Assembly: GCA_001661245.1 (NCBI GenBank) | Contig: KV454018.1 | Location: forward strand, 805,996-869,995 | From: Pachysolen tannophilus NRRL Y-2460 | Taxonomy: Eukaryota | Direction of reading: 5' to 3' | Length of the DNA: 64,000 nucleotides | Shown: one piece after another, positions 10,021 to 35,843 of the stretch | Layout of the letters: every line of letters begins with the position of its first letter | Numbering within the stretch: position 1 is the first letter of the stretch | Program-made: the position numbers and the translations under genes | The notes under the pieces: model-generated | What the model was told of the DNA's origin: nothing | The model's database searches: none | The model's input: the letters and a program-made list of their open reading frames with translations, nothing else

Positions 10021-10616
10021 TTACTCTTCATCTTCCACATCTTCATCTTCACTGCTTAACTCATTATCTTCCCAAGATTTTTCAACCGTCAGTCTAACTT
10101 TCTTAATATATTGTGATCTATGGTCCTTATACAAATTTGCCGCTTCAACATTGGCGGGACTTGCAATATTTGGATCATTCAATAACGATTGAATTGATGT
10201 CAATATCGAGGCCACATCATAAGTTGGAGACCATCTGTTTTGTAAAATATCCAAACATAATTCACCAGAAGCGTAAACATTTGGATGAAACATTTCACTT
10301 ATAAATTTGACTGAAGGCGGTTTATTCGGATATTGTTCATCAAATTGTAAAACCAACCTAAATGTCCCATCTTCAAAAGGGGTATCTGCCGGTCCTATGA
10401 TAACAGCGTTCCATGTCATAACATTATCTGGTAACGGAGAAGCTGACACCCCACCAGGAGCATCTGATTGCATACGCTATTTAAAGCAAAAAAAAATTAA
10501 AGAAAAAATAAAAAGTCAGTAATAAAATTCTAAAATCCAGAAATTTTCTACCAAATCATTGAGTATATACTTACTTTGAAATCACGCATAAGTCGTCTTC
10601 TAGCTGGAGTTGACAT
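10021..10616 (-). CDS. RAD6: Ubiquitin-conjugating enzyme Rad6/Ubc2; exons 10616-10575 and 10476-10021
   Basis: Exon 1 is [14 protein letters not shown]; intron 10574-10477 is GTAAGT...TACTGAC...TAG; exon 2 has [22 protein letters not shown] and an acidic tail. Confidence 0.97.
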
Positions 10617-13157: not shown

Positions 13158-15433
13158 ATGTCTGATCAAAAGAGTATGTATAAACTTATAATGATTTGGT
13201 TTGGTTTGATTTATTTTTTTATTTTTTTTTTTTTGTATTTAAACGTTTAGTCAAATAGTATGGTAAGGTACTAACAAAAATTGTTCAATTGGAAGATATA
13301 TCAGTAGTGTCTTTATTGACGTCTAATAACTCGAATTTGACATCAAATAATGGTCAGTCGGTCGAGGGAAATTCACAAAACCCACGTTGGAATTCGGGTA
13401 ATAATAATAGTAATGGAAATGGAAATGGAAATGGTAGTATGAGCCCAGCAACTGTTAATACTACACCATCATCAACTTATCACGGGAATTTTTATAATCC
13501 GATAAATGATACGGTGACTCCGTCACCAGCACCTATGCCTGTTTCTTTACCTCTGCCTGTCTTGGGGAGTACTGCTAATAATATTGGTGAAAGTGTTTCT
13601 GGGAGAAAACAAACAGTGGTTAAAAATAAAAATAACGAAATAGTTGTATTAGATGATGATACATCTGTCAATAGTGAAGATGATTTGATTATAGTGAGTG
13701 AAAGTGGTACTCCTAATGGTGGTAAGAGGACAATCCTGGTGCCGCTGAAGTTGAAACAAGGTACTCAATTAGATTCAACTAGTAAAAATATTGGAATTGG
13801 AAGTGAAAGCTCAGATCGAGCTATAGGAGCAAAATCTACAAGAGTTTCATTAACTTCTTTAATGAATAGTGATGAAGATGCTATAAAACATACTAATAAC
13901 AAGCCAAAAACAACTCTGACAAAAAATTCAACAACAACAAAAACTACTACAAGTACTGGTAGTACTAGTGCAGCATTAAAAAAATCTTCAACTTCAAAAG
14001 ATACAAAGGAAAAAGATCAAAAGACAACTAGAAGACCTAGAAAAAGGAAAGAAGTACAATCACAGGATCAAAACTTGAATAATACAATTATAATTGATGG
14101 TAAACCAGTGGTGGTAGGTGGTAATACCAAATCAGCACCAAATAAAATAAATGATGAAAGTATACTGCCACCACCAAAGAAGAAAACTAAAATTGATACT
14201 AAACCAAAATCAACCACTCCATTAATAAAGAAAGACCTGAAAAATATAAAAGACTCAAAGGACTCAAAGGACTCAAAAGAATTAAAAGAAAATATCACAA
14301 CATCATCGTCAACAACAGGTTCAGTACATACAACTATACCAACGCCAGTTGCACCATCTTTAACTGCATCGAAAAAAGATTATAATCTGAGTTCTAAAAA
14401 CAATACCCAACAACTGCATCCAAAGACATCTTCAGTAACCTCCTCAAAAGTCAAGAAAAATGATAGCCCTTTAAATATTCCATCAAAAGCAATTAAAAGA
14501 GGTCCTAAACCGAAAAATTCAAAACCAATAGTGGCACCTCCATTACCTCCCCCAACTCCTGAGGCCCCAGTATCAAAACCAATAATCACTCTTCCTCCTC
14601 CAAAATTATCGGATATATCTAAGTCGCCATCAAAAAAGATGAACACAGAGGAAGATTTTGAGAAAGATGAAGAAGTAGATCCATTAGATCCATTAGCTTC
14701 CAAAAAGAAAAAATCTTTAGAGCAAAAAGTTGAAGAACCTATTGTTTCCTTGAATATTCCATTAACATCTCTGGATCAACCTCCTGGTTCAGCTCAACTA
14801 GTTTTCAATGTCATGAAACTATGTGAAGATAAATACGGATGGAAAGCAATGCATCCAAACGCAAAATATGCTATGGACGATCTAAACGAAGAAGAAGAAG
14901 ATGATGATATTGAAGAGGTTGAGAATGATGATCTGGCACCAATATACGATAACAAGGAAAAGGAAAAAGAAAACGAGAAGGAAAACGAAAAAGTAAAACC
15001 TAAAAGGAAGGAGTTATCATTTGAGGCAAGAATGAACAGAAAAATTGGAAAGTACGATTACGAAGACCCTTTCATAGATGACGCTGAATTGCTTTGGGAT
15101 AAGCAAAATGTTTCCACGAAAGACGGGTTTTTTGTTTATTATGGACCATTGATTGAAGAGGGACAGAATGCAAGAATTGAAAAACTTGATAATAATAAAA
15201 GAAGTAATAATCATCAACTGAATCATAGCCATAGTTCAAGTAATAAACCGAACAGTGGTTCTTCAGTTTCAGTACAAAGAAAGAAACCGACTTCTTCCGT
15301 AAATAATAATGGTAATAATAGTAATAATAGTGGTAACAACAGACCCAAACTATTACCTTTACAACCAAAATCTAGAACTACAACACCTATTTCAAATGGT
15401 CACCAGTCGGTTAGCTCTACCCCAAAAGCTTGA
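13158..15433 (+). CDS. HPC2: HIR complex subunit Hpc2; exon 1 13158-13173, intron from 13174 to about 13295, exon 2 to 15433
   Basis: C-terminal HUN/HRD domain IGKYDYEDPFIDDAEL...DGFFVYYGPL; ATG TCT GAT CAA AAG A|GTATGT, branch TACTAAC at 13269, in-frame acceptors at 13295/13304/13307. Confidence 0.88.
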
Positions 15434-15674: not shown

Positions 15675-17768
15675 TTATTTCTTTTTTAATGTTTCAAGAG
15701 CAACTGGTATAAATTCTAGCTGATAGTTGGGTTTATCTTTATGATCAGCGCTCTTTTCGTATTTGGAATAATTTTCTTCTACTTTTGTGATGATCTTGTC
15801 TATTTGGTCCTGGTTTTTAATTTTAGATTTAATCACAATCAATAAATTTAAATAAGAAAGTAATATAGGAACCTGATCTTGATCAATTTTTTCATCTTTA
15901 GTAAAAGTCAAATCAATAGATTTGTCTGTTAAATTCAAAATATCAGAAGATCTTTCAGGAGTTAGTTTGATGTAAGTAGGTAATTCCCTAGACGGTAAAG
16001 ATGGAGGTTTTGAAGGCATCTCTTTATCTTCTTTGCCATTGATTTGTAGACTATTGATAGCGTTCTCCAAGCTTTTATTAGCGCTAGACGGAGGTGAGTC
16101 AAAAATTTTCTGTCTTATTAACAAATCTTTCAAAATTCCAATCAATGCTGCCTTCGCATTGTCATATGGGCATACCTCTAGTGAGTCTTTAATAAAATCA
16201 TAACTTATATCTTCTTTAGATAATGCCAAAATTTTCGTGACCAATGTATATATTATCATCCTAACAGCCGGATTATCACTCGCAGTGAGCCTTGAAATCA
16301 ACAATTGAAGATACAAGTTAGTATAAATTTTATCAACTTGAGCTATTGAAGAACTTGTTAAAGTCCTATCAAAATGCTTTTCATAGTGGATTGAATACCA
16401 TGACCAGAAAAATAAAGCATCTGAAGTGCTTTTGAAGTTTAGAGACGAATCTATGATAGCCGGAATAGATTTTCTTAAGAAAAATTTAATCATATCATGA
16501 GGCCTTATATTCAAAATTCTACTTTCATAACTTTTATCCAATGTAACTTGCAGTGTTAACAAAAGCATTATACCTTCTTTTGAAAGCGTAATAGATGCCT
16601 TTTTAGCCTTTTGAGATTTATTAAAATCACTAATGACTAGTGAATATATTTCTTCACTTAGAGGGTCTAATTCCTTCTTTTCATCTATTACAACATTATC
16701 ATTAAATAATGCTGCTGATTCACGTATATCTTCAAAAAATAATTCTTCCAAATTCAAATCTAAGGACCAAGCTAATTGTGCACATCTTAACATCAAGCCT
16801 TCATAATTATCATCAGCGCTAATGTCAAAGTGAGAGAAATTTAAATACAGTTCTGGTATTCTAAATTTTGAATTTGGTTTATGTAATTTTTGTGAATAAA
16901 AATTATAAGTCCAATTCATTGCAAATTTTGATATTAAAATTGGAATACCATTTGTCAAGAAACTAGTCAACAACACTCTTTGTAAGTATTCCTCATCTTC
17001 TTTGATTTTTATCAATTGTTCCTGGGACAATTCAGATGTGTTAGAAGAAGGAGATTTTGGAGGTGAATAATCCCTTATAAATGTATAAAATCTTCTGAAT
17101 ACAAACAAATTTGTAGCCGAAGATACAAAAGGTTGATTAACTATTAAAAAATTTGTAAAAGAAACAATTGCACTTGATAAGAATCTTGAAGGGTAATTCG
17201 TAGTAATTTTCTTTAAGGAAGAATTCAATAATTCAATTAATGCATGGAACAGTATCTTGAAAAAATACTCTTGGTCCTCATTGATAAAACCTTTCTCATC
17301 AGGTTGCAAAGTTAACTTGGAAATGAGTTCACAACTCTTCAAGAGCAATTCTTTTGAATTACCATATTCCGATAACAATTTGAAAATCTGAATGATTATT
17401 ACAATAGATTCATTTCCTTGTAACCTAATAGTCCGTTGTAAATTTCCAAATAAAAACTTTATCAACAAATCTGGTAAATCCCAACCAATCTCATATATTA
17501 TATCATGATTTTCTTCTAAAATCTTTTCAAGAGCATTCAAAATCATAAGCTTCTCTTCTTGATCAAATCTTGAAATATCTGTTAAATAAACATCTATCAA
17601 TGTCGCATAGGATAAATAATCTTTGGTCTCTTTTAATTCAACCAACGACAGGTTTAAATTCTCAACAATTGTAACAGCAGAAATACCATCTTGGCTAACC
17701 TCTGCCTCTGATCCGGCTTCCTCTATCTTGGAATTCGTCTCTAACATTATATCCTTTGTATCAGACAT
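15675..17768 (-). CDS. YBP1: Yap1-binding protein (Ybp1/Ybp2, glomulin-like)
   Basis: IYEIGWDLP, YGNSKELLLK, ITTNYPSRFL and CPYDNAKAALIGILK motifs; lies between HPC2 and ATG12 as in S. cerevisiae. Confidence 0.85.
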   Translation of the reverse strand: MSDTKDIMLETNSKIEEAGSEAEVSQDGISAVTIVENLNLSLVELKETKDYLSYATLIDVYLTDISRFDQEEKLMILNALEKILEENHDIIYEIGWDLPDLLIKFLFGNLQRTIRLQGNESIVIIIQIFKLLSEYGNSKELLLKSCELISKLTLQPDEKGFINEDQEYFFKILFHALIELLNSSLKKITTNYPSRFLSSAIVSFTNFLIVNQPFVSSATNLFVFRRFYTFIRDYSPPKSPSSNTSELSQEQLIKIKEDEEYLQRVLLTSFLTNGIPILISKFAMNWTYNFYSQKLHKPNSKFRIPELYLNFSHFDISADDNYEGLMLRCAQLAWSLDLNLEELFFEDIRESAALFNDNVVIDEKKELDPLSEEIYSLVISDFNKSQKAKKASITLSKEGIMLLLTLQVTLDKSYESRILNIRPHDMIKFFLRKSIPAIIDSSLNFKSTSDALFFWSWYSIHYEKHFDRTLTSSSIAQVDKIYTNLYLQLLISRLTASDNPAVRMIIYTLVTKILALSKEDISYDFIKDSLEVCPYDNAKAALIGILKDLLIRQKIFDSPPSSANKSLENAINSLQINGKEDKEMPSKPPSLPSRELPTYIKLTPERSSDILNLTDKSIDLTFTKDEKIDQDQVPILLSYLNLLIVIKSKIKNQDQIDKIITKVEENYSKYEKSADHKDKPNYQLEFIPVALETLKKK

Positions 17769-17917
17769 GTTTTTATTAAAAATATCAAATAATTGGTTAA
17801 AAATACCAATTTTTTGTATATTTCAATTTTTTAAATATTTTAAAAATATTTTCAATTTATAAATTTAACCATCAATTAATTGTATCAATAAATTACAACA
17901 ACAAGATAAAAACAAGA

Positions 17918-18753
17918 ATGGATCCACCTCTTTCAGATGATGATGACGATAATGAGTCTTCTTCTTCCTATTCGGAATATAGTTCATTGAACAACTCAGC
18001 TAATGTGCTGAACTTGAAACTTCAAGGAGAGGAAAGGCAACCGGAAGATGAAGGGAAGCGCGATGAGGCAAATGTGGAGGGAAACAAAGCTGATGAAGGA
18101 CACATTGTAAAGACAAAACCAAGGGAAAATATAGATGAAGGAGAAGAAGAAGTACAAGAACCGAAACTTGAAGCTGAAGCTGAAGAAGAAACAGATTCCA
18201 AACACATGTCTCCTAAACTTACATTGAACGATAATAGTAGTAAAGAGCTGGATTTAAATAGTGAACGAGATGATATAAAGTTTAAAGTCCCGCTATCCAC
18301 ATCTATTATGTTAACGAGATTAGATGCTAATACCAATGATATTGTTGAAAGAATTGCAAAACCAAGAACAGATAAAGTCACAATAAGATTCCAACCAATA
18401 GGTTCTCTGCCTCAGATGAAACCAAAAATTTTTAAGATATCAGCTTCACAACATTTCCAAACATTAATAAAGTTTTTAGATAAGAAACTAACAAAGAAAA
18501 TCACCGATGTTAATGCCAAATCAATAAATCCTTTCACTGGTGGAAGGATTTTCTGTTATATCCATAATTCGTTCAGTCCTGGGCCTGACGAGATTATTGG
18601 AAATTTATTCGATGTAAGTTATATATTTTTCTTTTATGAAAGTTATTAGGCTCTCCATATTTGTTCATACTAACAAACCTGATTCTATTATAGAATTTTG
18701 CTTCAAATAACGAATTAGTCGTTTCCTATTGTGATACAGTAGCTTTTAGATAA
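17918..18753 (+). CDS. ATG12: Ubiquitin-like autophagy protein Atg12; exons 17918-18613 and 18694-18753; ends in Arg instead of Gly
   Basis: KVTIRFQPIGS, IFCYIHNSFSPGPDEIIGNLF; intron GTAAGT...TACTAAC...TAG at 18614-18693; exon 2 reads NFASNNELVVSYCDTVAFR*. Confidence 0.92.
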
Positions 18754-19186
18754 AAAGTTTATATCAAATTCAATTCCTTACTTATACAAAACGTAGAGTT
18801 TTTCTTAACAACTATACAACATCTATATATCTATCAATCACTATAGATATTTTTTTTTTTTTTTTTTTTATTTTTTAATTTGGAAATTGGATTATTGGAT
18901 TATTTGATTAATGTTATCTTTCTTTTTTTTCTTTTTCTTTTTTTTATTTATATATATATATATATATATCTTTTCTTTTTGTCTACAATATAATTGAAAT
19001 ATTAAAAAAGAAAGGAAATAACTAAACTCCAAAGACAAGGCAAATAAACCATATGACAATTATATATTGTTTGGTTTTCAATAAGATCCTTTCCATAACA
19101 ACACCTCAAAGAAAAAAGAAAAGAAAAAAAAAAATTAATTGTAAGAACAGTAAATAAAAATATAAATAAAATGTAATTTGTTCAAA

Positions 19187-28377: not shown

Positions 28378-31300
28378 ATGACAATTACCAAACAGCTATT
28401 AATTGGAGTTGACGTTGGGGGTACTAATACTGATTCGGTATTATTGAATCCCAAGGACTTTAATACCGAAAGTAGAGGAGTGTTATCATGGCATAAATCA
28501 AATACTACAGCAGATGTTTCTGAAGGAATTGAGAATGGTATAGAGAAATTGTTTGAACAAACTCTGGAAGTTAGTAGAAATGAAGTTGTTGCTGTTACTA
28601 TTGGTACTACTCAATTTATTAACGCTGTTATTGAACAAGATAAGGCAAGGTTAGAGAAAGTTGCTGTATTGAGATTATGTGGGCCTTACTCTAGGGGTTC
28701 ACCTCCATTTTCAGATTTCCCCGAAGGTTTAAGAGATGTTACTGAAGGTTATTCAGGTTTTGTTAATGGTGGTCATAGAGTTGATGGTTGGGAAATTCAA
28801 CCTTTAAATGAACAAGAAATTCGAATGCATTGTAAAGAAATTCTTAAAAGAGGTATTAAAGCTGTAGCAATTGTTGGTATTTTTGCTATAATGAAAAAAG
28901 ATCATGAATTACGTGCAATGGAAATTGTTAAACAAGAATTACCCTTTGCTAAAATAGTTATGTCACATGAAATTTCAGGTATAGGTTTTATTGAAAGAGA
29001 AAATGCAACAATTTTAAATGCTGCAGTTATGACATTTGCTGATAAAATTGTTAATTCTTTTATTAGTGCAGTTAGAAATTTAGGATTGAATTGTCCAGTA
29101 TTACTTACTCAAAATGATGGTACAGTGTTATCGGCAAAAGATGCTATAAAGACACCAATAAAAACATTCTCCTCAGGAGCTACAAATTCAATGCGTGGTG
29201 CTGCTTTCTTATCAATGAAAGTTGAAGGAATTATGGGGAAAACTACAATTGTAGCAGATGTTGGTGGTACTACCTTAGATTGTGGAGTTTTATTACCGTC
29301 AGGGTTCCCAAGACAAAGTTCATCATATTCTTATGTTGGTGGTGTAAGAATGAATTTTTCAATGCCTCATGTTGAATCAATTGGTTTAGGTGGTGGTTCA
29401 ATTGTAAGAGGTCAAGGTGAAAATATGACTATTGGACCAGATTCTGTAGGTGCAGATATTGTTACCAAAAGTTTAACTTTTGGTGGTGATACAGTTACAA
29501 CAACCGATGTTACACTTGCAATTAACACAGAAGGTGTGGAAAATTATGATACAAGTCTTTATAAAGTTGGTGAACCTAAAAAAGTTCATGGTAAATTCTC
29601 ACAGGATTTTAAAGAATCTTTTAGTAAATTGTTAAAAAGAAAAATTGAAAGAATAATAGATAGAATGAGAACTTCACCAGAACCTTTGCCTGTTTTGTTT
29701 GTTGGTGGTGGATCATTTATTTGTCCCATCGAGTTGGAAGGTGCTTCAACTGTTTCACGTCCACCTTTTTTCTCTGTGGCAAATGCAATCGGAGCAGCTA
29801 TTGGTAAAATTAGTGCTTCTGTCCATAAGATTCAACTTGTTACTGGCGAAGATAAAGAAGCTATTGTTGAAGAATTGAAAAAACAAGCTACTGAAAGGGC
29901 AATTGAAAAAGGTGCATTAGAATCCTCGATTACTGTGGTAGATATTAAAACTGAACCAATCCCATACGTTAGTAGTACATATGAATTTGAAATTAAAGTT
30001 GTTGGTGATGTAGATTATGAAAAGATGTCAACTGCGTTTAAGCAAGCATCAGCAACAGATGGATCCACTGGGAAAATCGAAACACTGGAAGATCATATTC
30101 GTAACAGTGTTTACAAAGATTCAGTTTTCAACAAGGATAAAAAGGCTAAGGAAGAAGAAGATTTTGATCATGAAAAATATGTTCCTCTTGTCAATAGTGA
30201 AAGACAATGGATTATTTCTGAAACTGATTTGAACTATATTGCCTGTGGTAATTATATCTTAGGATGTGGAGGTGGAGGCAGTCCATATGGTATTTTTTTG
30301 GAAATCCGTGAACAAATTCGTAAAGGTCACAAGATTAGAGTCATTAATTTATTTGATGCACCAAAATATTGTGCTGAAGGAGGTTTTGGTGCATGTAGTG
30401 TTGGATTTGCTGGATCTCCTACAATTTCAAATGAACAACTTCCAGGTAAAGAATTAGTTGAGGCAATTAATTTGCTTAGTGAATGGACTCACAAGAAACC
30501 AGAACTTGTTTTCCCCTTAGAAATTGGTGGAGGTAATGGTCTTCAAGGTGTTTATTGTGGATCTTCTGCAGTGATGGATTTACCAGTTGTTGACTGTGAC
30601 TTGATGGGTAGAGCTTATCCAACTCATTGGCAAACTTTACCAGTTGTTTTCGGTAATGATAAACCTTTTTTCGCTCCTTCAGCTATATCAGATTCAAATG
30701 GTAATACTATTTTAATTACAACTTGTCAAACTGATATCCACATGGAACGTATAATGAGGGCTTCTTTGGCTGAAATTGGTGCACATGTCGGTGTTGTAAA
30801 CCCTCCTATGCATTATAAAGATTTAGTAACAAAAACTGTTCATCATTCATTATCTCTTTCTTGGAGAATTGGTAGAGCTGTTGCCATTGCTCGCCAGAAA
30901 AGTGAAATTGAAAAATTACCACAAACCATCATTGATTCTGTTGGTGGTAGCGAAACTGGAAAACAAATTTTTAGTGGTAAAATCGTTGGAGTTGAAAGAA
31001 ATTTATTTAAAGGACATAATTACGGTGAAGTTATAATTGAAGCAGAAAATGGTGATATGATGGCCATTCCTTTCAAAAATGAAAACATCTTGGCTAAAGT
31101 TCGATCACCTGGTGAAAAAGACTGGAAAATCTACGCCACAGTCCCAGATCTCATCTCAGTATGTGATGCAGACACTGGTGAAGGTGTAGGAACTCAAGAC
31201 TATAGATACGGTTTACTAGTTTTCGTTATTGCCATGGCTGCAAGTGAGTTATGGACCAACACCGAAAAGGGGATAGAAGTTGGTGGCCCTAAAGCTTTTG

Positions 31301-31398
31301 GACCACCTTTCGAAGAAGTCCCATATACTCCTATTGGGAAGTATGTTGCCCCTATCTCGGTTATTGATGAATATGGTCCTAGTCCTGCGTCGAAGTAA
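28378..31398 (+). CDS. Hydantoinase A/oxoprolinase-like ATPase domain fused to a C-terminal DUF917 domain
   Basis: N-half has GVDVGGTNTD, IGTT, ERENATILNA, SSGATNSMRGA, DVGGTT, SIGLGGGS; C-half has ILGCGGGG, EIGGGNG, DCDLMGRAYP, FKNEN, PDLI, YRYG. Confidence 0.85.
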   Translation: MTITKQLLIGVDVGGTNTDSVLLNPKDFNTESRGVLSWHKSNTTADVSEGIENGIEKLFEQTLEVSRNEVVAVTIGTTQFINAVIEQDKARLEKVAVLRLCGPYSRGSPPFSDFPEGLRDVTEGYSGFVNGGHRVDGWEIQPLNEQEIRMHCKEILKRGIKAVAIVGIFAIMKKDHELRAMEIVKQELPFAKIVMSHEISGIGFIERENATILNAAVMTFADKIVNSFISAVRNLGLNCPVLLTQNDGTVLSAKDAIKTPIKTFSSGATNSMRGAAFLSMKVEGIMGKTTIVADVGGTTLDCGVLLPSGFPRQSSSYSYVGGVRMNFSMPHVESIGLGGGSIVRGQGENMTIGPDSVGADIVTKSLTFGGDTVTTTDVTLAINTEGVENYDTSLYKVGEPKKVHGKFSQDFKESFSKLLKRKIERIIDRMRTSPEPLPVLFVGGGSFICPIELEGASTVSRPPFFSVANAIGAAIGKISASVHKIQLVTGEDKEAIVEELKKQATERAIEKGALESSITVVDIKTEPIPYVSSTYEFEIKVVGDVDYEKMSTAFKQASATDGSTGKIETLEDHIRNSVYKDSVFNKDKKAKEEEDFDHEKYVPLVNSERQWIISETDLNYIACGNYILGCGGGGSPYGIFLEIREQIRKGHKIRVINLFDAPKYCAEGGFGACSVGFAGSPTISNEQLPGKELVEAINLLSEWTHKKPELVFPLEIGGGNGLQGVYCGSSAVMDLPVVDCDLMGRAYPTHWQTLPVVFGNDKPFFAPSAISDSNGNTILITTCQTDIHMERIMRASLAEIGAHVGVVNPPMHYKDLVTKTVHHSLSLSWRIGRAVAIARQKSEIEKLPQTIIDSVGGSETGKQIFSGKIVGVERNLFKGHNYGEVIIEAENGDMMAIPFKNENILAKVRSPGEKDWKIYATVPDLISVCDADTGEGVGTQDYRYGLLVFVIAMAASELWTNTEKGIEVGGPKAFGPPFEEVPYTPIGKYVAPISVIDEYGPSPASK

Positions 31399-31874: not shown

Positions 31875-34800
31875 ATGGACGGTGTTCGTATTGCTATTGA
31901 CCGTGGTGGAACTTTTACGGACGTTATTGCATTTGTACCAGGTAAAGAGAATTATGTCTTTAAATTGTTATCGGTAGATCCTTCTAATTATGATGATGCT
32001 AATATTGAAGGTATTAGAAGAGTGCTAGAACATGCAAGTGGTAAAAATATTCCAAGAGGTCAACCTTTGGATACATCACTTGTACGTTCTTTAAAATTAG
32101 GTACTACTGTTGCAACAAATGCGTTATTGGAAAGAAAAGGTGAAAGATGTGCTTTAGTAACAACAAAAGGTTTTAAAGATGCTTTAGTTATAGGTAATCA
32201 GACCAGACCTCATATTTTTGAATTAGCAATTAGACGTCCAGATGTCTTGTATGAAACAGTTGTTGAAATTGATGAAAGAGTTACATTAGAAGATTATGCT
32301 GAAGATCCAGAACAAATTTATACTGCAGTTGACTGTAATAACAAAGATAAAAATTTGGTTCAAGGTGTTTCTGGTGAAACTGTTCGTATATTGAAAAGAC
32401 CAGATTTTGAAGGTATTAAATCTACTTTAAAAATCTTGTATAATACTGGTATTCGTTCTATTGGGGTATGTTTATTGCATTCTTATACTTTTCCTGATCA
32501 TGAAAAAATAGTTGGTGATATTGCTAAAGAAATTGGATTTTCTCATATTTCATTATCATCAGATATATCTCCAATGATAAAATATGTTCCAAGAGCAAAT
32601 TCATCAATTGCTGATGCTTATTTAACTCCAGAAATTAAAAAATATTTAACCAGTTTCCAAAGAGGATTGAAAGATGGTTTACAGTCAGTGGTAGATAACA
32701 AGACCACTGGTGTCAGATGTCAATTCATGAAATCAGATGGTGGAATGGTTGACTCATCTAAATTTTCAGGATTGAAAGCTATCTTATCTGGTCCAGCTGG
32801 TGGTGTTGTTGGTTTAGCTGAAACTTCATACAACCCAAAGAATAATATTCCGTTAATCGGTTTAGATGTTGGTGGAACAAGTACTGATTGTTCAAGATTT
32901 GATGGTAAATATGCACATGTCTTTGAGACAACAACAGCAGGTATCACTGTTCAATCTCCTCAATTAGATATTAATACGATTGCTGCAGGAGGTGGTTCTA
33001 GGTTGTTTTATGAAAATGGTTTGATGAGAGTTGGACCAGAATCTGCTGGTGCTCATCCAGGTCCTGTATGTTACCGTAAAAACGGTTATTTAACTGTTAC
33101 CGATGCTAACTTATTATTAGGAAGATTAGTACCAGAATTTTTTCCAAAAATTTTTGGTCCAAATGAAAATGAAGAACTTGATCAAGAAACAACTTTTAAG
33201 GAATTTGCAAAATTGACAGAATTAATTAACAAGGAGTCACCAGATAAGAAAATGACACCTGAAGAGGTAGCTTCAGGATTTTTAAACGTTGCCAATGAAG
33301 CCATGGCAAGGCCAATTAGAACTTTGACAGAAGCAAAAGGTCATGTTTTGGAAAATCACAGATTAGTTTCTTTTGGTGGTGCTGGTGGCCAATGCTGTTG
33401 TTTTGTTGCTTTTGAAAAATTAGGTATTAACACTGTCTTGATTCACAGATACTCCTCCGTCCTCTCTGCATATGGTATGGCATTAGCTGACGTTGTTGAA
33501 GAAGTTCAAGAACCTTCATCATTAATATTGAATGAAGAAAATAAAAATGCAATCAACTCTACTTTTAAAAGTTTGACTGAAAAGGCTAGACAAGCTTTAA
33601 TGATTCAAGATTTCTCCGATTCGGACATCACTTATGAAAAATACCTTAACTTAAGATATAGAGGAACTGAGTCAGCAATAATGACATTATCGGATGATAA
33701 TATTGATTCTTATCAAAGCAATTTCTTAGATTTGCACAAGAAGGAATTTGGATTTGTTTTTACCGATAAGGATATCATCATTGATGACTTCAGAGTTAGA
33801 GCTATTGGTAAAGCACATACTATCAGTACCCCATCTGTTGATGATCAAATAGAATCTTTGAAGCTGAAGAATGAGATCAAGCGTGTTTCTTCCTCATCAG
33901 CTAAATTTACTAGAAAAACTTATTTTGAAGGTAAATGGATTCCAACAAATGTCTACCGTTTGGAAGATCTCCTGATAGGTTCTGAAATTTTAGGACCAGC
34001 TATCATTGCAGATGGTACACAAACTAATGTTATTCCGCCGGATTCTGTTGTTTTAATTTTGGAAACTCACGTAGTAGTCACTAATACTAAGGAAAAAGTT
34101 TCGAAGAGCAGCAAAATCGGAGAAGGTGTTCAAATAGAACCAGTTTTATTGTCAATTTTTGGTCACAGATTCATTGATATTGCAGAGCAAATGGGTAATT
34201 CTTTACAAAAGACTGCTGTTTCAACAAATGTTAAAGAAAGATTAGATTTCAGTTGTGCATTATTTGATGCAGATGCAAATTTAGTCTCTAGTGCGCCTCA
34301 TATTCCTGTCCATCTCGGCAGTATGGGGACTTTTGTAAAATTTCAATCAAACTTGTGGAAAGGTAAATTAAAAGAAGGTGATGTCTTAGTTGGTAACCAT
34401 CCAATTGCTGGAAACACTCATTTGCCAGATATCACAGTTTTAACTCCAGTTTTCCATGAAGGTAAGATATTTTTCTATTTAGCTTCCAGAGCGCACCATA
34501 GTGATATTGGTTCCAGCTTACCAGGTAGTATGCCACCAAACAGTAAAGAACTTTGGGAAGAAGGTGCAAGTATTTACTCTGAATTTTTGGTTAAAGATGG
34601 TGTATTTCAAGAAGAAAGAATGGAACAACTTCTTTTGGTTGAACCAGCTAAATATCCAGGTTGTTCTGGTACTAGAAAATTATCAGATAACATTAGTGAC
34701 TTGAAAGCCCAAGTTGCAGCAAATCAAAAAGGTATTGGTTTAGTCAAGCGTCTTGTATCTGAATTTAGCTTGAATGTTGTCTTGGCATACATGGAAGCTA

Positions 34801-35843
34801 TTCAGGTAAATGCCAATAATACTGTTCAAAAATTGTTGAAAAAAATTGGAACAAAAGTTTTAGAGGCTGAAGATTTTATGGATGATGGATCAAGAATTCT
34901 GCTTAGAGTTGATGTTAATGGCGACGACGGTACTGCTGTTTTAGATTTTACTGGAACAAGTGATGAAATGTATGGTAACTTGAATGCACCAGAAGCTATC
35001 ACTTATTCAGCTCTTATTTATTGTTTAAGATGCATTGTTAATGAAAGTATTCCTTTGAATCAAGGATTCTTACGTCCTTTAAAAGTCATTATTCCGAAAG
35101 GGTCACTTTTGTCTCCATCTGATGGTGCTGCTGTTGTAGCTGGAAATGTTATGACATCACAAAGAATTACAGATGTTGTTTTTAAAGCATTTAAGACAAT
35201 GGCTGGTTCTCAAGGAGACTGTAATAATTTCACATTTGGTAATGGAGGAAATTCTGAGAATGGTGATTATAAAAAAGGTTTTGGTTATTATGAGACCATT
35301 GCTGGAGGCCATGGAGCTGGACCAACTTGGGATGGTGTTTCTGCGGTCCACACTAATATGACAAATACTAAGATGACCGATGTTGAAGTTTTCGAAAAAA
35401 GATATCCTGTTATCTTGAGAGAATTTTCCATAAGACAAAACTCTGGTGGTAATGGTAAATTTAAAGGTGGTAATGGTGCAGTTCGTGATATTGAATTTAG
35501 AGTTCCATTGACACTGTCGATATTATCAGAACGTCGTGTCAACATGCCATATGGTTTACTTGGAGGTCAACCAGGTTCCAGAGGTCTTAACTCTTGGGTT
35601 AGAAGAATCTATGACAAAGATGGAAACTTTGTGGGCACAAGAACAATTAATATTGGAGGTAAGAATACAGTAAACGTTCAAGCTGGTGACAGAATTGTAT
35701 TAAAAACCCCAGGTGGTGGTGGTTATGGTAGTCCTGAAGAAGTCGCAAAAGATGAAGAGTACAATAAAACGTTGAACCCAACGTTCAAGTATGTTGGTAC
35801 TGGTTCCATTGCCATTCGTCATGAAACACAATACGGTAATTGA
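31875..35843 (+). CDS. OXP1: ATP-dependent 5-oxoprolinase
   Basis: IAIDRGGTFTD, GTTVATNALLERKG, SGPAGG, NVKERLDFSCA, HIPVHLGSM, YYETIAGG, HTNMTNT and TPGGGGYG; first ATG at 31875. Confidence 0.96.
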   Translation: MDGVRIAIDRGGTFTDVIAFVPGKENYVFKLLSVDPSNYDDANIEGIRRVLEHASGKNIPRGQPLDTSLVRSLKLGTTVATNALLERKGERCALVTTKGFKDALVIGNQTRPHIFELAIRRPDVLYETVVEIDERVTLEDYAEDPEQIYTAVDCNNKDKNLVQGVSGETVRILKRPDFEGIKSTLKILYNTGIRSIGVCLLHSYTFPDHEKIVGDIAKEIGFSHISLSSDISPMIKYVPRANSSIADAYLTPEIKKYLTSFQRGLKDGLQSVVDNKTTGVRCQFMKSDGGMVDSSKFSGLKAILSGPAGGVVGLAETSYNPKNNIPLIGLDVGGTSTDCSRFDGKYAHVFETTTAGITVQSPQLDINTIAAGGGSRLFYENGLMRVGPESAGAHPGPVCYRKNGYLTVTDANLLLGRLVPEFFPKIFGPNENEELDQETTFKEFAKLTELINKESPDKKMTPEEVASGFLNVANEAMARPIRTLTEAKGHVLENHRLVSFGGAGGQCCCFVAFEKLGINTVLIHRYSSVLSAYGMALADVVEEVQEPSSLILNEENKNAINSTFKSLTEKARQALMIQDFSDSDITYEKYLNLRYRGTESAIMTLSDDNIDSYQSNFLDLHKKEFGFVFTDKDIIIDDFRVRAIGKAHTISTPSVDDQIESLKLKNEIKRVSSSSAKFTRKTYFEGKWIPTNVYRLEDLLIGSEILGPAIIADGTQTNVIPPDSVVLILETHVVVTNTKEKVSKSSKIGEGVQIEPVLLSIFGHRFIDIAEQMGNSLQKTAVSTNVKERLDFSCALFDADANLVSSAPHIPVHLGSMGTFVKFQSNLWKGKLKEGDVLVGNHPIAGNTHLPDITVLTPVFHEGKIFFYLASRAHHSDIGSSLPGSMPPNSKELWEEGASIYSEFLVKDGVFQEERMEQLLLVEPAKYPGCSGTRKLSDNISDLKAQVAANQKGIGLVKRLVSEFSLNVVLAYMEAIQVNANNTVQKLLKKIGTKVLEAEDFMDDGSRILLRVDVNGDDGTAVLDFTGTSDEMYGNLNAPEAITYSALIYCLRCIVNESIPLNQGFLRPLKVIIPKGSLLSPSDGAAVVAGNVMTSQRITDVVFKAFKTMAGSQGDCNNFTFGNGGNSENGDYKKGFGYYETIAGGHGAGPTWDGVSAVHTNMTNTKMTDVEVFEKRYPVILREFSIRQNSGGNGKFKGGNGAVRDIEFRVPLTLSILSERRVNMPYGLLGGQPGSRGLNSWVRRIYDKDGNFVGTRTINIGGKNTVNVQAGDRIVLKTPGGGGYGSPEEVAKDEEYNKTLNPTFKYVGTGSIAIRHETQYGN

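What the first reader, a model, noticed from the sequence alone, without database searches (positions are those of the whole stretch)
18614..18753. Atg12 lacks its C-terminal glycine (…VAFR*): candidate non-covalent Atg12–Atg5 system
Seen: after removing the 80-nt intron, exon 2 reads NFASNNELVVSYCDTVAFR-stop, with AGA at 18748-18750 where the family has AFG/AWG. The ORF track hides this because it reads into the intron. Known: that Gly is required for Atg7 activation, Atg10 transfer and isopeptide linkage to Atg5. Loss of the Gly together with ATG10 and a switch to non-covalent binding is described in Komagataella, Plasmodium and Toxoplasma. Inference: this yeast may be another lineage with a non-conjugating Atg12. 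The gene is otherwise intact and syntenic with HPC2-YBP1. GGA>AGA is a single base change, so a sequencing error must be excluded. I cannot tell whether this species has already been reported.
Basis: partly seen in the sequence, partly recalled or inferred. Interest (0 to 1): 0.85.

Follow-up and report, generated by a model that had tools for sequence, protein, structure and literature searches.

The report
Pachysolen Atg12 ends without its glycine
The yeast Pachysolen tannophilus encodes an otherwise well-conserved autophagy protein, Atg12, that ends in arginine instead of the glycine needed to link it chemically to Atg5, so it probably binds Atg5 without a chemical bond, as Komagataella yeast and malaria parasites do.

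Summary
The window is Pachysolen tannophilus NRRL Y-2460. ATG12 has exon 1 at 17918-18613, an 80-nt intron at 18614-18693 (GTAAGT, TACTAAC, AG) and exon 2 at 18694-18753, ending ...VAFR then TAA. AGA lies at 18748-18750. Spliced and read with table 26, it equals the deposited protein PACTADRAFT_82823 residue for residue.

The arginine sits where S. cerevisiae Atg12 has its terminal glycine. Of 114 relatives with a complete C-terminal strand, 111 end in Gly. The exceptions are this gene, Komagataella phaffii (Ser) and one unnamed protein.

The rest of the gene is intact. It keeps 27 of 28 conserved columns, folds confidently as Atg12 and has a short tree branch.

Five runs from two studies hold every sampled word of the stretch. 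That makes a sequencing error unlikely, but read laying returned nothing.

The non-covalent Atg12-Atg5 interpretation is plausible but unproven. No genome was held, so ATG10 and Atg5 could not be examined.

This is best filed as a candidate second budding-yeast lineage of a known kind. The two key papers could not be read, so prior report cannot be excluded.

The parts
17918..18613 (+). ATG12 exon 1: 232 codons. Residues 1-120 are acidic and disordered. From about residue 121 come two helices and most of the ubiquitin-like domain.
   Evidence: ORF. Pfam APG12 E 4.2e-16 on residues 153-231. Identical to P0001 under table 26. pLDDT 87-98 for residues about 121-250, apart from the 191-210 loop (61-69), and 49-65 for 1-120.
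18614..18693 (+). 80-nt spliceosomal intron, phase 0 (GTAAGT ... TACTAAC ... TATAG)
   Evidence: Sequence. The donor plus branch pattern is unique in the window, 0.04 expected. Relatives P0002, P0003, P0022 and P0160 read through into 'VS...' at the same codon, which points to an intron at the same position.
18668..18674 (+). Branch-point consensus TACTAAC, 17 nt before the 3' AG
18694..18750 (+). ATG12 exon 2: 19 codons encoding part of the last helix and the last strand and tail of the ubiquitin-like fold, ...ELVVSYCDTVAFR
   Evidence: Translation. Aligns to the C-terminal strand of S. cerevisiae, plant and human Atg12. Helix 227-234 and strand 239-245 in the model.
18748..18750 (+). AGA (Arg251) at the position of the family's terminal conjugation glycine
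   Evidence: The same codon AGA also encodes the conserved Arg157 of this gene, so AGA is read as Arg here.
18751..18753 (+). TAA stop codon directly after Arg251

Best explanation
This is the single, functional ATG12 gene of Pachysolen tannophilus, and its product cannot be conjugated. In the canonical system the C-terminal carboxylate of a terminal glycine is adenylated by Atg7, passed to Atg10 and joined to a lysine of Atg5. Here the last residue is Arg, and the nearest Gly upstream is Gly228, inside the fold, so no trimming could expose a conjugation Gly. The rest of the ubiquitin-like domain is conserved as in conjugating yeasts. The most likely mechanism is therefore the one shown for Komagataella phaffii and Apicomplexa: Atg12 binds Atg5 non-covalently, and the Atg12/Atg5(/Atg16) complex still acts as the E3-like factor for Atg8 lipidation. 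On this reading ATG10 should be absent or decaying in this genome.

Shown here: the Gly-less ending, the gene model and the conservation of the remainder. Inferred: non-covalent binding, loss of ATG10 and working autophagy. The change is most simply a single GGA>AGA transition. It arose independently of Komagataella, which belongs to a different order and ends in Ser.
For: Gene model and ending. Identity to the deposited NCBI model.

R251 aligns with the last residue of S. cerevisiae Atg12 in the solved conjugate 3w1s_C.

111 of 114 relatives end in Gly. The only named exception is Komagataella phaffii, the established non-covalent case. K. pastoris also ends in Ser.

The gene is under constraint. 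It keeps 27 of 28 columns conserved at 70% or more, and the only miss is the terminal Gly. The AlphaFold model has pLDDT 87-98 over the domain outside the 191-210 loop. The best fold matches are human and yeast Atg12, TM 0.90 and 0.87 on the target. The end branch is 0.32, below the median 0.46.

AGA also codes the conserved Arg157, and GGA is the commonest Gly codon in the gene, 6 of 10.

No second Pachysolen Atg12 appeared in three protein searches.

Independence from Komagataella. Pachysolen is in Alaninales; Komagataella, Kuraishia and Ogataea are in Pichiales (PMC11182611, passages). Kuraishia capsulata and Candida boidinii keep Gly.

Literature passages state that loss of ATG10 goes with non-covalent, functional Atg12-Atg5 (PMC6971693, PMC12005411, PMC11764061, PMC6652269).
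Against: ATG10, ATG5, ATG7 and ATG16 of this species were not examined, because no genome was held. The core prediction, ATG10 absent, is therefore untested.

There is no read-level or RNA confirmation of base 18748 or of the splice junction.

The two sequencing studies may have used the same type strain, so a strain-private mutation is not excluded.

The short branch and 27-of-28 conservation fit a very recent change equally well, including a recent null allele. Komagataella, the proven case, shows a long stem branch instead (1.07).

The consensus used comes from hits chosen by similarity to this very protein, which flatters its score.

Exon 2 of the nearest relative (P0002) could not be read, so the age of the change is unknown.
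Confidence: 0.62

Rival explanations
1. Transitional or mixed state. The Gly has been lost in the Pachysolen lineage but ATG10 is still present, either as a relic or with some other role. Atg12 works non-covalently while the rest of the conjugation machinery has not yet decayed.
For: Short Atg12 branch (0.32 against a median of 0.46) and 27 of 28 conserved columns suggest little change since the ancestor. The long acidic N-terminal region is retained, whereas K. phaffii Atg12 is only 142 aa.
Against: The charophyte comparison in PMC6652269 (passage) suggests that ATG10 is lost first and the Gly afterwards, which is the opposite order. Nothing about ATG10 was observed here.
Confidence: 0.17
2. 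Strain-private loss-of-function allele. The sequenced type strain carries a recent GGA>AGA missense mutation that kills conjugation. ATG10 and Atg5 are normal, and this strain is simply autophagy-impaired.
For: The change is a single transition. All data may derive from one strain: P0001 has 1 member sequence and 1 contig, and runs from two studies are identical in all sampled words. No other feature of the gene has changed.
Against: A private mutation hitting exactly this one codon is far less likely a priori than a substitution fixed along the long, isolated Pachysolen lineage (inference). From recall, not tested here: autophagy is needed for sporulation in S. cerevisiae, and this strain is used in sporulation genetics.
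Confidence: 0.12
3. Artefact or RNA-level correction. The true message encodes Gly because of a sequencing or assembly error, A-to-G editing or an alternative isoform.
For: It is a single-base difference. No reads could be laid and no RNA run was found.
Against: The same ending is in the deposited NCBI protein. Five runs of two studies, 2010-11 and 2023, hold 1.00 of 102 sampled 31-mers. By my own estimate, at that sampling density there is about a 97% chance that at least one sampled word spans 18748. None of 5 alternative acceptors gives a Gly ending. There is no GT donor just before the AGA codon.
Confidence: 0.04
4. Atg12 is still attached covalently by an unconventional route that uses the C-terminal Arg.
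For: None found.
Against: Every described Atg12 conjugation uses the terminal Gly (literature passages). 111 of 114 relatives keep it.
Confidence: 0.02

Closest known systems
Komagataella phaffii / K. pastoris Atg12 (P0013, P0159), the non-covalent Atg12-Atg5 system of Pang et al. 2019
   Same: Both are budding yeasts of the class Pichiomycetes. Atg12 keeps ...VAF but ends in a non-Gly residue. The ubiquitin-like domain is conserved, 25 of 28 columns in K. phaffii against 27 of 28 here. Both carry the loop insertion ...TGGRIF....
   Different: They belong to different orders, Pichiales and Alaninales. The last residue is Ser there and Arg here. Komagataella Atg12 is 142 aa with almost no N-terminal disordered region and a long stem branch (1.07). 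Pachysolen Atg12 is 251 aa with a 120-aa acidic region and a short branch (0.32). Loss of ATG10 and non-covalent binding are shown experimentally for K. phaffii (citing reviews) and are untested for Pachysolen.
Saccharomyces cerevisiae Atg12 in the Atg12-Atg5 conjugate (PDB 3w1s chain C); human ATG12 (4gdk)
   Same: Same family and fold: phmmer E 4.3e-19; Foldseek TM 0.87 and 0.90 on the target. Same C-terminal strand motif ...SYC..VAF.
   Different: These end in Gly and are isopeptide-linked to Atg5. The Pachysolen protein has Arg at that exact position and a 15-residue loop insertion relative to the yeast chain.
Apicomplexan (Plasmodium, Toxoplasma) and Chara braunii ATG12
   Same: Plasmodium and Toxoplasma lack ATG10 and the ATG12 Gly and have a shown non-covalent ATG12-ATG5 complex (PMC11764061 and PMC6971693 passages). 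Chara braunii lacks a detectable ATG10 and its ATG12 has no terminal Gly; a non-covalent complex is only proposed for it (PMC6652269 passage).
   Different: These are very distant lineages. No sequence comparison was made here.
Kuraishia capsulata Atg12 (P0005), the nearest named relative
   Same: 60% identity over 122 columns, nearest by tree path. Same loop insertion.
   Different: Ends in ...VAFG, that is, it keeps the conjugation Gly.

Membership tests
Atg12 homology family (Pfam PF04110 APG12) | Match to the APG12 profile above Pfam's gathering score | tested here: met
   59.6 bits against a cut-off of 22.8, E 4.2e-16, on exon 1 alone. PF04110 is precomputed for P0001.
Atg12 homology family (Pfam PF04110 APG12) | Ubiquitin-like beta-grasp fold resembling solved Atg12 | tested here: met
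   AlphaFold pLDDT 87-98 over residues about 121-250, apart from the 191-210 loop. Top PDB matches are 4gdk_A (TM 0.90) and 3w1s_C (TM 0.87).
Covalent Atg12 conjugation system (Atg7-Atg10-Atg12~Atg5) | C-terminal glycine on Atg12 | tested here: not met
   The protein ends ...VAFR and then TAA. R251 aligns with the last residue of S. cerevisiae Atg12. The nearest upstream Gly is G228.
Covalent Atg12 conjugation system (Atg7-Atg10-Atg12~Atg5) | E2-like Atg10 encoded in the genome | not testable with these tools
   No genome is held for the window. No Atg10 query sequence was available.
Covalent Atg12 conjugation system (Atg7-Atg10-Atg12~Atg5) | Acceptor lysine in Atg5 | not testable with these tools
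   No Atg5 sequence of this species could be obtained. There is no ATG5 among the 30 ORFs of at least 130 aa in the window.
Non-covalent Atg12-Atg5 system (Komagataella / Apicomplexa type) | Atg12 lacks the terminal Gly but is otherwise conserved | tested here: met
Non-covalent Atg12-Atg5 system (Komagataella / Apicomplexa type) | ATG10 absent from the genome | not testable with these tools
Non-covalent Atg12-Atg5 system (Komagataella / Apicomplexa type) | Stable non-covalent Atg12-Atg5 complex that supports Atg8 lipidation | not testable with these tools
   This needs Atg5 of this species and bench work. Complex prediction was not run because no partner sequence was available.

The most novel reading that the evidence does not exclude
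Pachysolen tannophilus is an independent and evolutionarily young switch from covalent to non-covalent Atg12-Atg5 within budding yeasts. It was achieved by one base change (GGA>AGA) in an otherwise unchanged Atg12, possibly with ATG10 still in the genome. That would make it a natural intermediate, in a culturable yeast, showing which step comes first when a ubiquitin-like conjugation system is abandoned.
Probability: 0.2. Interest if true: 0.6.

Novelty: new member of a known kind. Interest (0 to 1): 0.4.

Why it matters
Ubiquitin-like conjugation turning into simple binding is a rare, well-defined evolutionary transition. Among yeasts, only Komagataella is named in the papers I could read.

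A second, independent yeast case would allow a direct comparison of what must change for Atg12 and Atg5 to work without a covalent bond, and in what order Gly and ATG10 are lost. Pachysolen suits this well: it is culturable, its Atg12 has barely diverged, and it still carries the long disordered N-terminus.

The finding is incremental rather than surprising. Loss of the covalent bond is already reported to have happened at least 16 times among 94 eukaryotes (statement in PMC11764061 citing Zhang et al. 2022).

Tried and rejected
Genome search for ATG10 (PF03987) in the window's own genome: no genome held. The same family through a metagenome locus handle: record not held.

Reads. The look-up of sequencing runs listed no RNA holder. 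Read laying on X1, X2, X3 and X5 (4 of the 5 holders; X4 not sent) laid 0 contigs in every run, and the tool warns that this can be false. There is therefore no read-level view of 18748 or of the junction.

Papers. Pang et al. 2019 (DOI) and Zhang et al. 2022 (DOI and PMC9673942) are not held. Their text and supplements may already list Pachysolen. A search for 'Pachysolen' plus 'ATG12' gave 1 paper (PMC11305268), which mentions Pachysolen only for Atg14. A search for ATG10 with CUG-Ala, Nakazawaea, Peterozyma or Pachysolen found 32 papers holding at least 2 of the 5 terms; none of the 15 listed contains ATG10. Searches found no survey of Saccharomycotina.

Earlier notes of this scan. There are none on this genome, and no finding mentions Atg12 or Atg10. 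The hits were giant-virus ATG8 cases, which are irrelevant here.

Relatives' exon 2. The nearest relatives, P0002 and P0003 (unnamed), are ORF calls that run into the intron, so their true C-termini are unknown. The metagenome scan gave 5 loci. The 3 that I translated (L001, L003, L004) all end in Gly. L002 and L005 were not translated.

Gene tree (41 rows, 132 columns, quick method, terminal residue removed). The yeast backbone is unresolved, so it cannot by itself test whether the Pachysolen and Komagataella losses are independent.

Screen for residues shared by the two Gly-less yeasts but rare elsewhere. It gave D188, R210 and D246 at 2% or less. D188 also occurs in the Gly-ending P0012, and D246 in the Gly-ending P0007 and P0079. 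I take this as no signal.

Alternative acceptors and an internal donor that could give a Gly ending: none.

Complex prediction was not used, for lack of an Atg5 sequence.

Full report
**Identity of the window.** Exon 1 of the flagged gene matches one protein in the collection at 99%: PACTADRAFT_82823 of Pachysolen tannophilus NRRL Y-2460, 251 aa. The three differences are CTG codons, which this yeast reads as Ala (NCBI table 26). Spliced and read with table 26, the window's CDS is identical to that protein over all 251 residues.

**Observation.**
- Exon 1 is 17918-18613 (232 codons).
- The intron is 18614-18693, exactly 80 nt. It starts GTAAGT, has TACTAAC at 18668-18674 and ends TATAG.
- Exon 2, 18694-18753, reads NFASNNELVVSYCDTVAFR then stop. 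AGA is at 18748-18750 and TAA at 18751-18753.
- The donor plus branch-point pattern occurs once in 64 kb, against 0.04 expected.
- None of the five other AG acceptors downstream of the branch point gives an Atg12-like or Gly-ending product. No GT donor precedes the AGA codon.
- Unspliced ORF calls from several relatives (P0002, P0003, P0022, and P0160 of Wickerhamomyces ciferrii) run on into 'VS...' at the same codon. The intron position is therefore old.

**What the gene is.** Exon 1 alone hits Pfam APG12 at 59.6 bits, against a cut-off of 22.8. phmmer against PDB sequences finds S. cerevisiae Atg12 from the Atg12-Atg5 conjugate (3w1s_C, E 4.3e-19), then plant and human ATG12. Query residues 151-250 align to chain residues 6-90 of a 91-residue chain, so R251 stands exactly where that chain has its last residue.

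An AlphaFold model built on 114 relatives gives pLDDT 87-98 over residues about 121-250. A lower-confidence loop lies at about 191-210, and residues 1-120 are disordered. Its best PDB matches are human and yeast Atg12, TM 0.90 and 0.87 on the target.

Upstream lie a YBP1-like gene (15675-17768, minus strand, Kinetochor_Ybp2, E 7.5e-112) and an HPC2-like gene (13439-15433, HUN domain, E 1.6e-6). Downstream is MPM1. That this order matches S. cerevisiae is my recollection, not a tool result.

**How unusual the ending is.** An exhaustive HMMER search of 1.84 billion cluster representatives gave 508 hits at E of 0.001 or better, of which the best 150 are listed.
- I examined 151 proteins: those 150 plus P0003.
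- 37 lacked a complete C-terminal strand, through intron read-through or truncation, and were set aside.
- Of the remaining 114, 111 end in Gly, 2 in Ser and 1 in Arg, which is this gene.
- One Ser case is Komagataella phaffii (P0013). Its cluster mate K. pastoris (P0159) also ends in Ser. The other Ser case (P0100) is an unnamed JGI protein.
- Named yeasts near Pachysolen keep Gly: Kuraishia capsulata, Candida boidinii, Cyberlindnera fabianii and Ascoidea rubescens.
- So do all 14 of the 18 further proteins from a profile search that have a complete end, and the 3 metagenome loci I translated.

**Is the gene decaying?** No. Of 28 alignment columns conserved at 70% or more, Pachysolen keeps 27, and the single miss is the terminal Gly. 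K. phaffii keeps 25 and the median relative keeps 24. One caveat applies: the hits were selected by similarity to this protein, which biases the consensus towards it.

In a tree of 41 rows with the terminal residue removed, the Pachysolen end branch is 0.32 (median 0.46), while the Komagataella stem is 1.07. The yeast backbone is unresolved.

AGA is an ordinary Arg codon here and also encodes the conserved Arg157. GGA is the commonest Gly codon in the gene, 6 of 10, so a single GGA>AGA transition is the simplest origin. One relative, L003, uses GGA for its terminal Gly.

**Error or real?**
- The deposited protein has the same ending.
- Five runs from two studies (2010-11 and 2023) hold 1.00 of 102 sampled 31-mers of 17850-18840. 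One of them may be the source of the window.
- By my own estimate, at that sampling density about 97% of positions are spanned by at least one sampled word.
- Laying contigs returned nothing for all four runs sent, and no RNA run was listed. The base and the junction therefore remain unconfirmed at read level.
- Both studies may have sequenced the same type strain.

**Mechanism.** Passages in PMC6971693 and PMC6652269 restate that Atg12 is joined through its C-terminal Gly to a lysine of Atg5 by Atg7 and Atg10. PMC6971693 gives the lysine as Lys149.

Passages in PMC12005411, PMC11764061 and PMC6971693 say that Plasmodium, Toxoplasma and K. phaffii lack ATG10 and use a functional non-covalent Atg12-Atg5 complex; PMC6971693 adds that they lack the Gly.

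An Atg12 that ends in Arg, has no Gly nearer than G228 and is otherwise conserved is best explained the same way. I put this at about 0.62, plus about 0.17 for a variant in which ATG10 still exists.

The key prediction, no ATG10, could not be tested. No genome is held, the window holds no other ATG gene among its 30 ORFs of at least 130 aa, and no Atg5 or Atg10 sequence could be obtained.

The main rival is a strain-private null allele (0.12). The short branch is compatible with it. I rate it lower because a substitution fixed along the long, isolated Pachysolen lineage is a priori far more likely than a private hit on exactly this codon.

**Independence from Komagataella.** Pachysolen belongs to Alaninales. 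Komagataella, Kuraishia and Ogataea belong to Pichiales (PMC11182611, passages). Pichiales members Kuraishia capsulata and C. boidinii keep Gly, and the replacing residues differ (Arg against Ser). Two separate losses is the parsimonious reading. The gene tree cannot confirm it.

**Novelty.** In the searchable library no paper links Pachysolen to the Atg12 Gly or to ATG10. Every paper I read names only K. phaffii among yeasts. The two primary surveys, Pang 2019 and Zhang 2022, are not held. As I recall its abstract, Pang et al. say 'some yeast species such as' K. phaffii, so Pachysolen may already be listed there.

I file this as a candidate new member of a known kind. Interest is moderate, because such losses are said to have occurred at least 16 times among 94 eukaryotes (PMC11764061).

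Noticed in passing
window 18008-18010, 18248-18250, 18407-18409: The three CTG codons of ATG12 are read as Ala in the deposited protein (table 26). At residue 164 several relatives, including Cyberlindnera, Wickerhamomyces mucosus and K. phaffii, also have Ala, which fits CUG=Ala decoding.
   Followed up: partly
protein P0100 (unnamed JGI/IMG, 136 aa): Another Atg12 whose complete C-terminal strand ends in Ser (...TPAWS) instead of Gly. It keeps only 19 of 28 conserved columns and could be a further Gly-less lineage in an unnamed eukaryote.
   Followed up: no
proteins P0013/P0159 against window 17918-18280: Komagataella Atg12 is 142 aa with almost no N-terminal disordered region and a long stem branch (1.07). 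Pachysolen keeps a roughly 120-aa acidic disordered N-terminus. A 2026 paper (PMC13434597; I saw only the search listing, title and start of the abstract) says this region restrains Atg7-Atg12 conjugation, so its retention here is worth a look.
   Followed up: no
window 18494-18547 (residues 193-210): A 15-residue loop insertion relative to S. cerevisiae Atg12 (...INPFTGGRIF...). It is shared with Kuraishia, C. boidinii, K. phaffii and P0002, so it is a lineage feature and not tied to loss of the Gly. Its model confidence is lower, pLDDT 61-69.
   Followed up: partly
window 28378-31398 and 31875-35843: Two adjacent large hydantoinase/oxoprolinase-type genes on the plus strand. The first (1006 aa) fuses Hydant_A_N and Hydantoinase_A with S-Me-THD N- and C-terminal domains.
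   Followed up: no
window 10021-10473 (minus strand): The ubiquitin-conjugating enzyme ORF starts at profile position 10 of UQ_con, so its first codons probably lie in an upstream exon.
   Followed up: no
window 18846-18975: A long T run and a (TA)n tract in the ATG12-MPM1 intergenic region. I kept them out of the stretch sent to the read tools.
   Followed up: no
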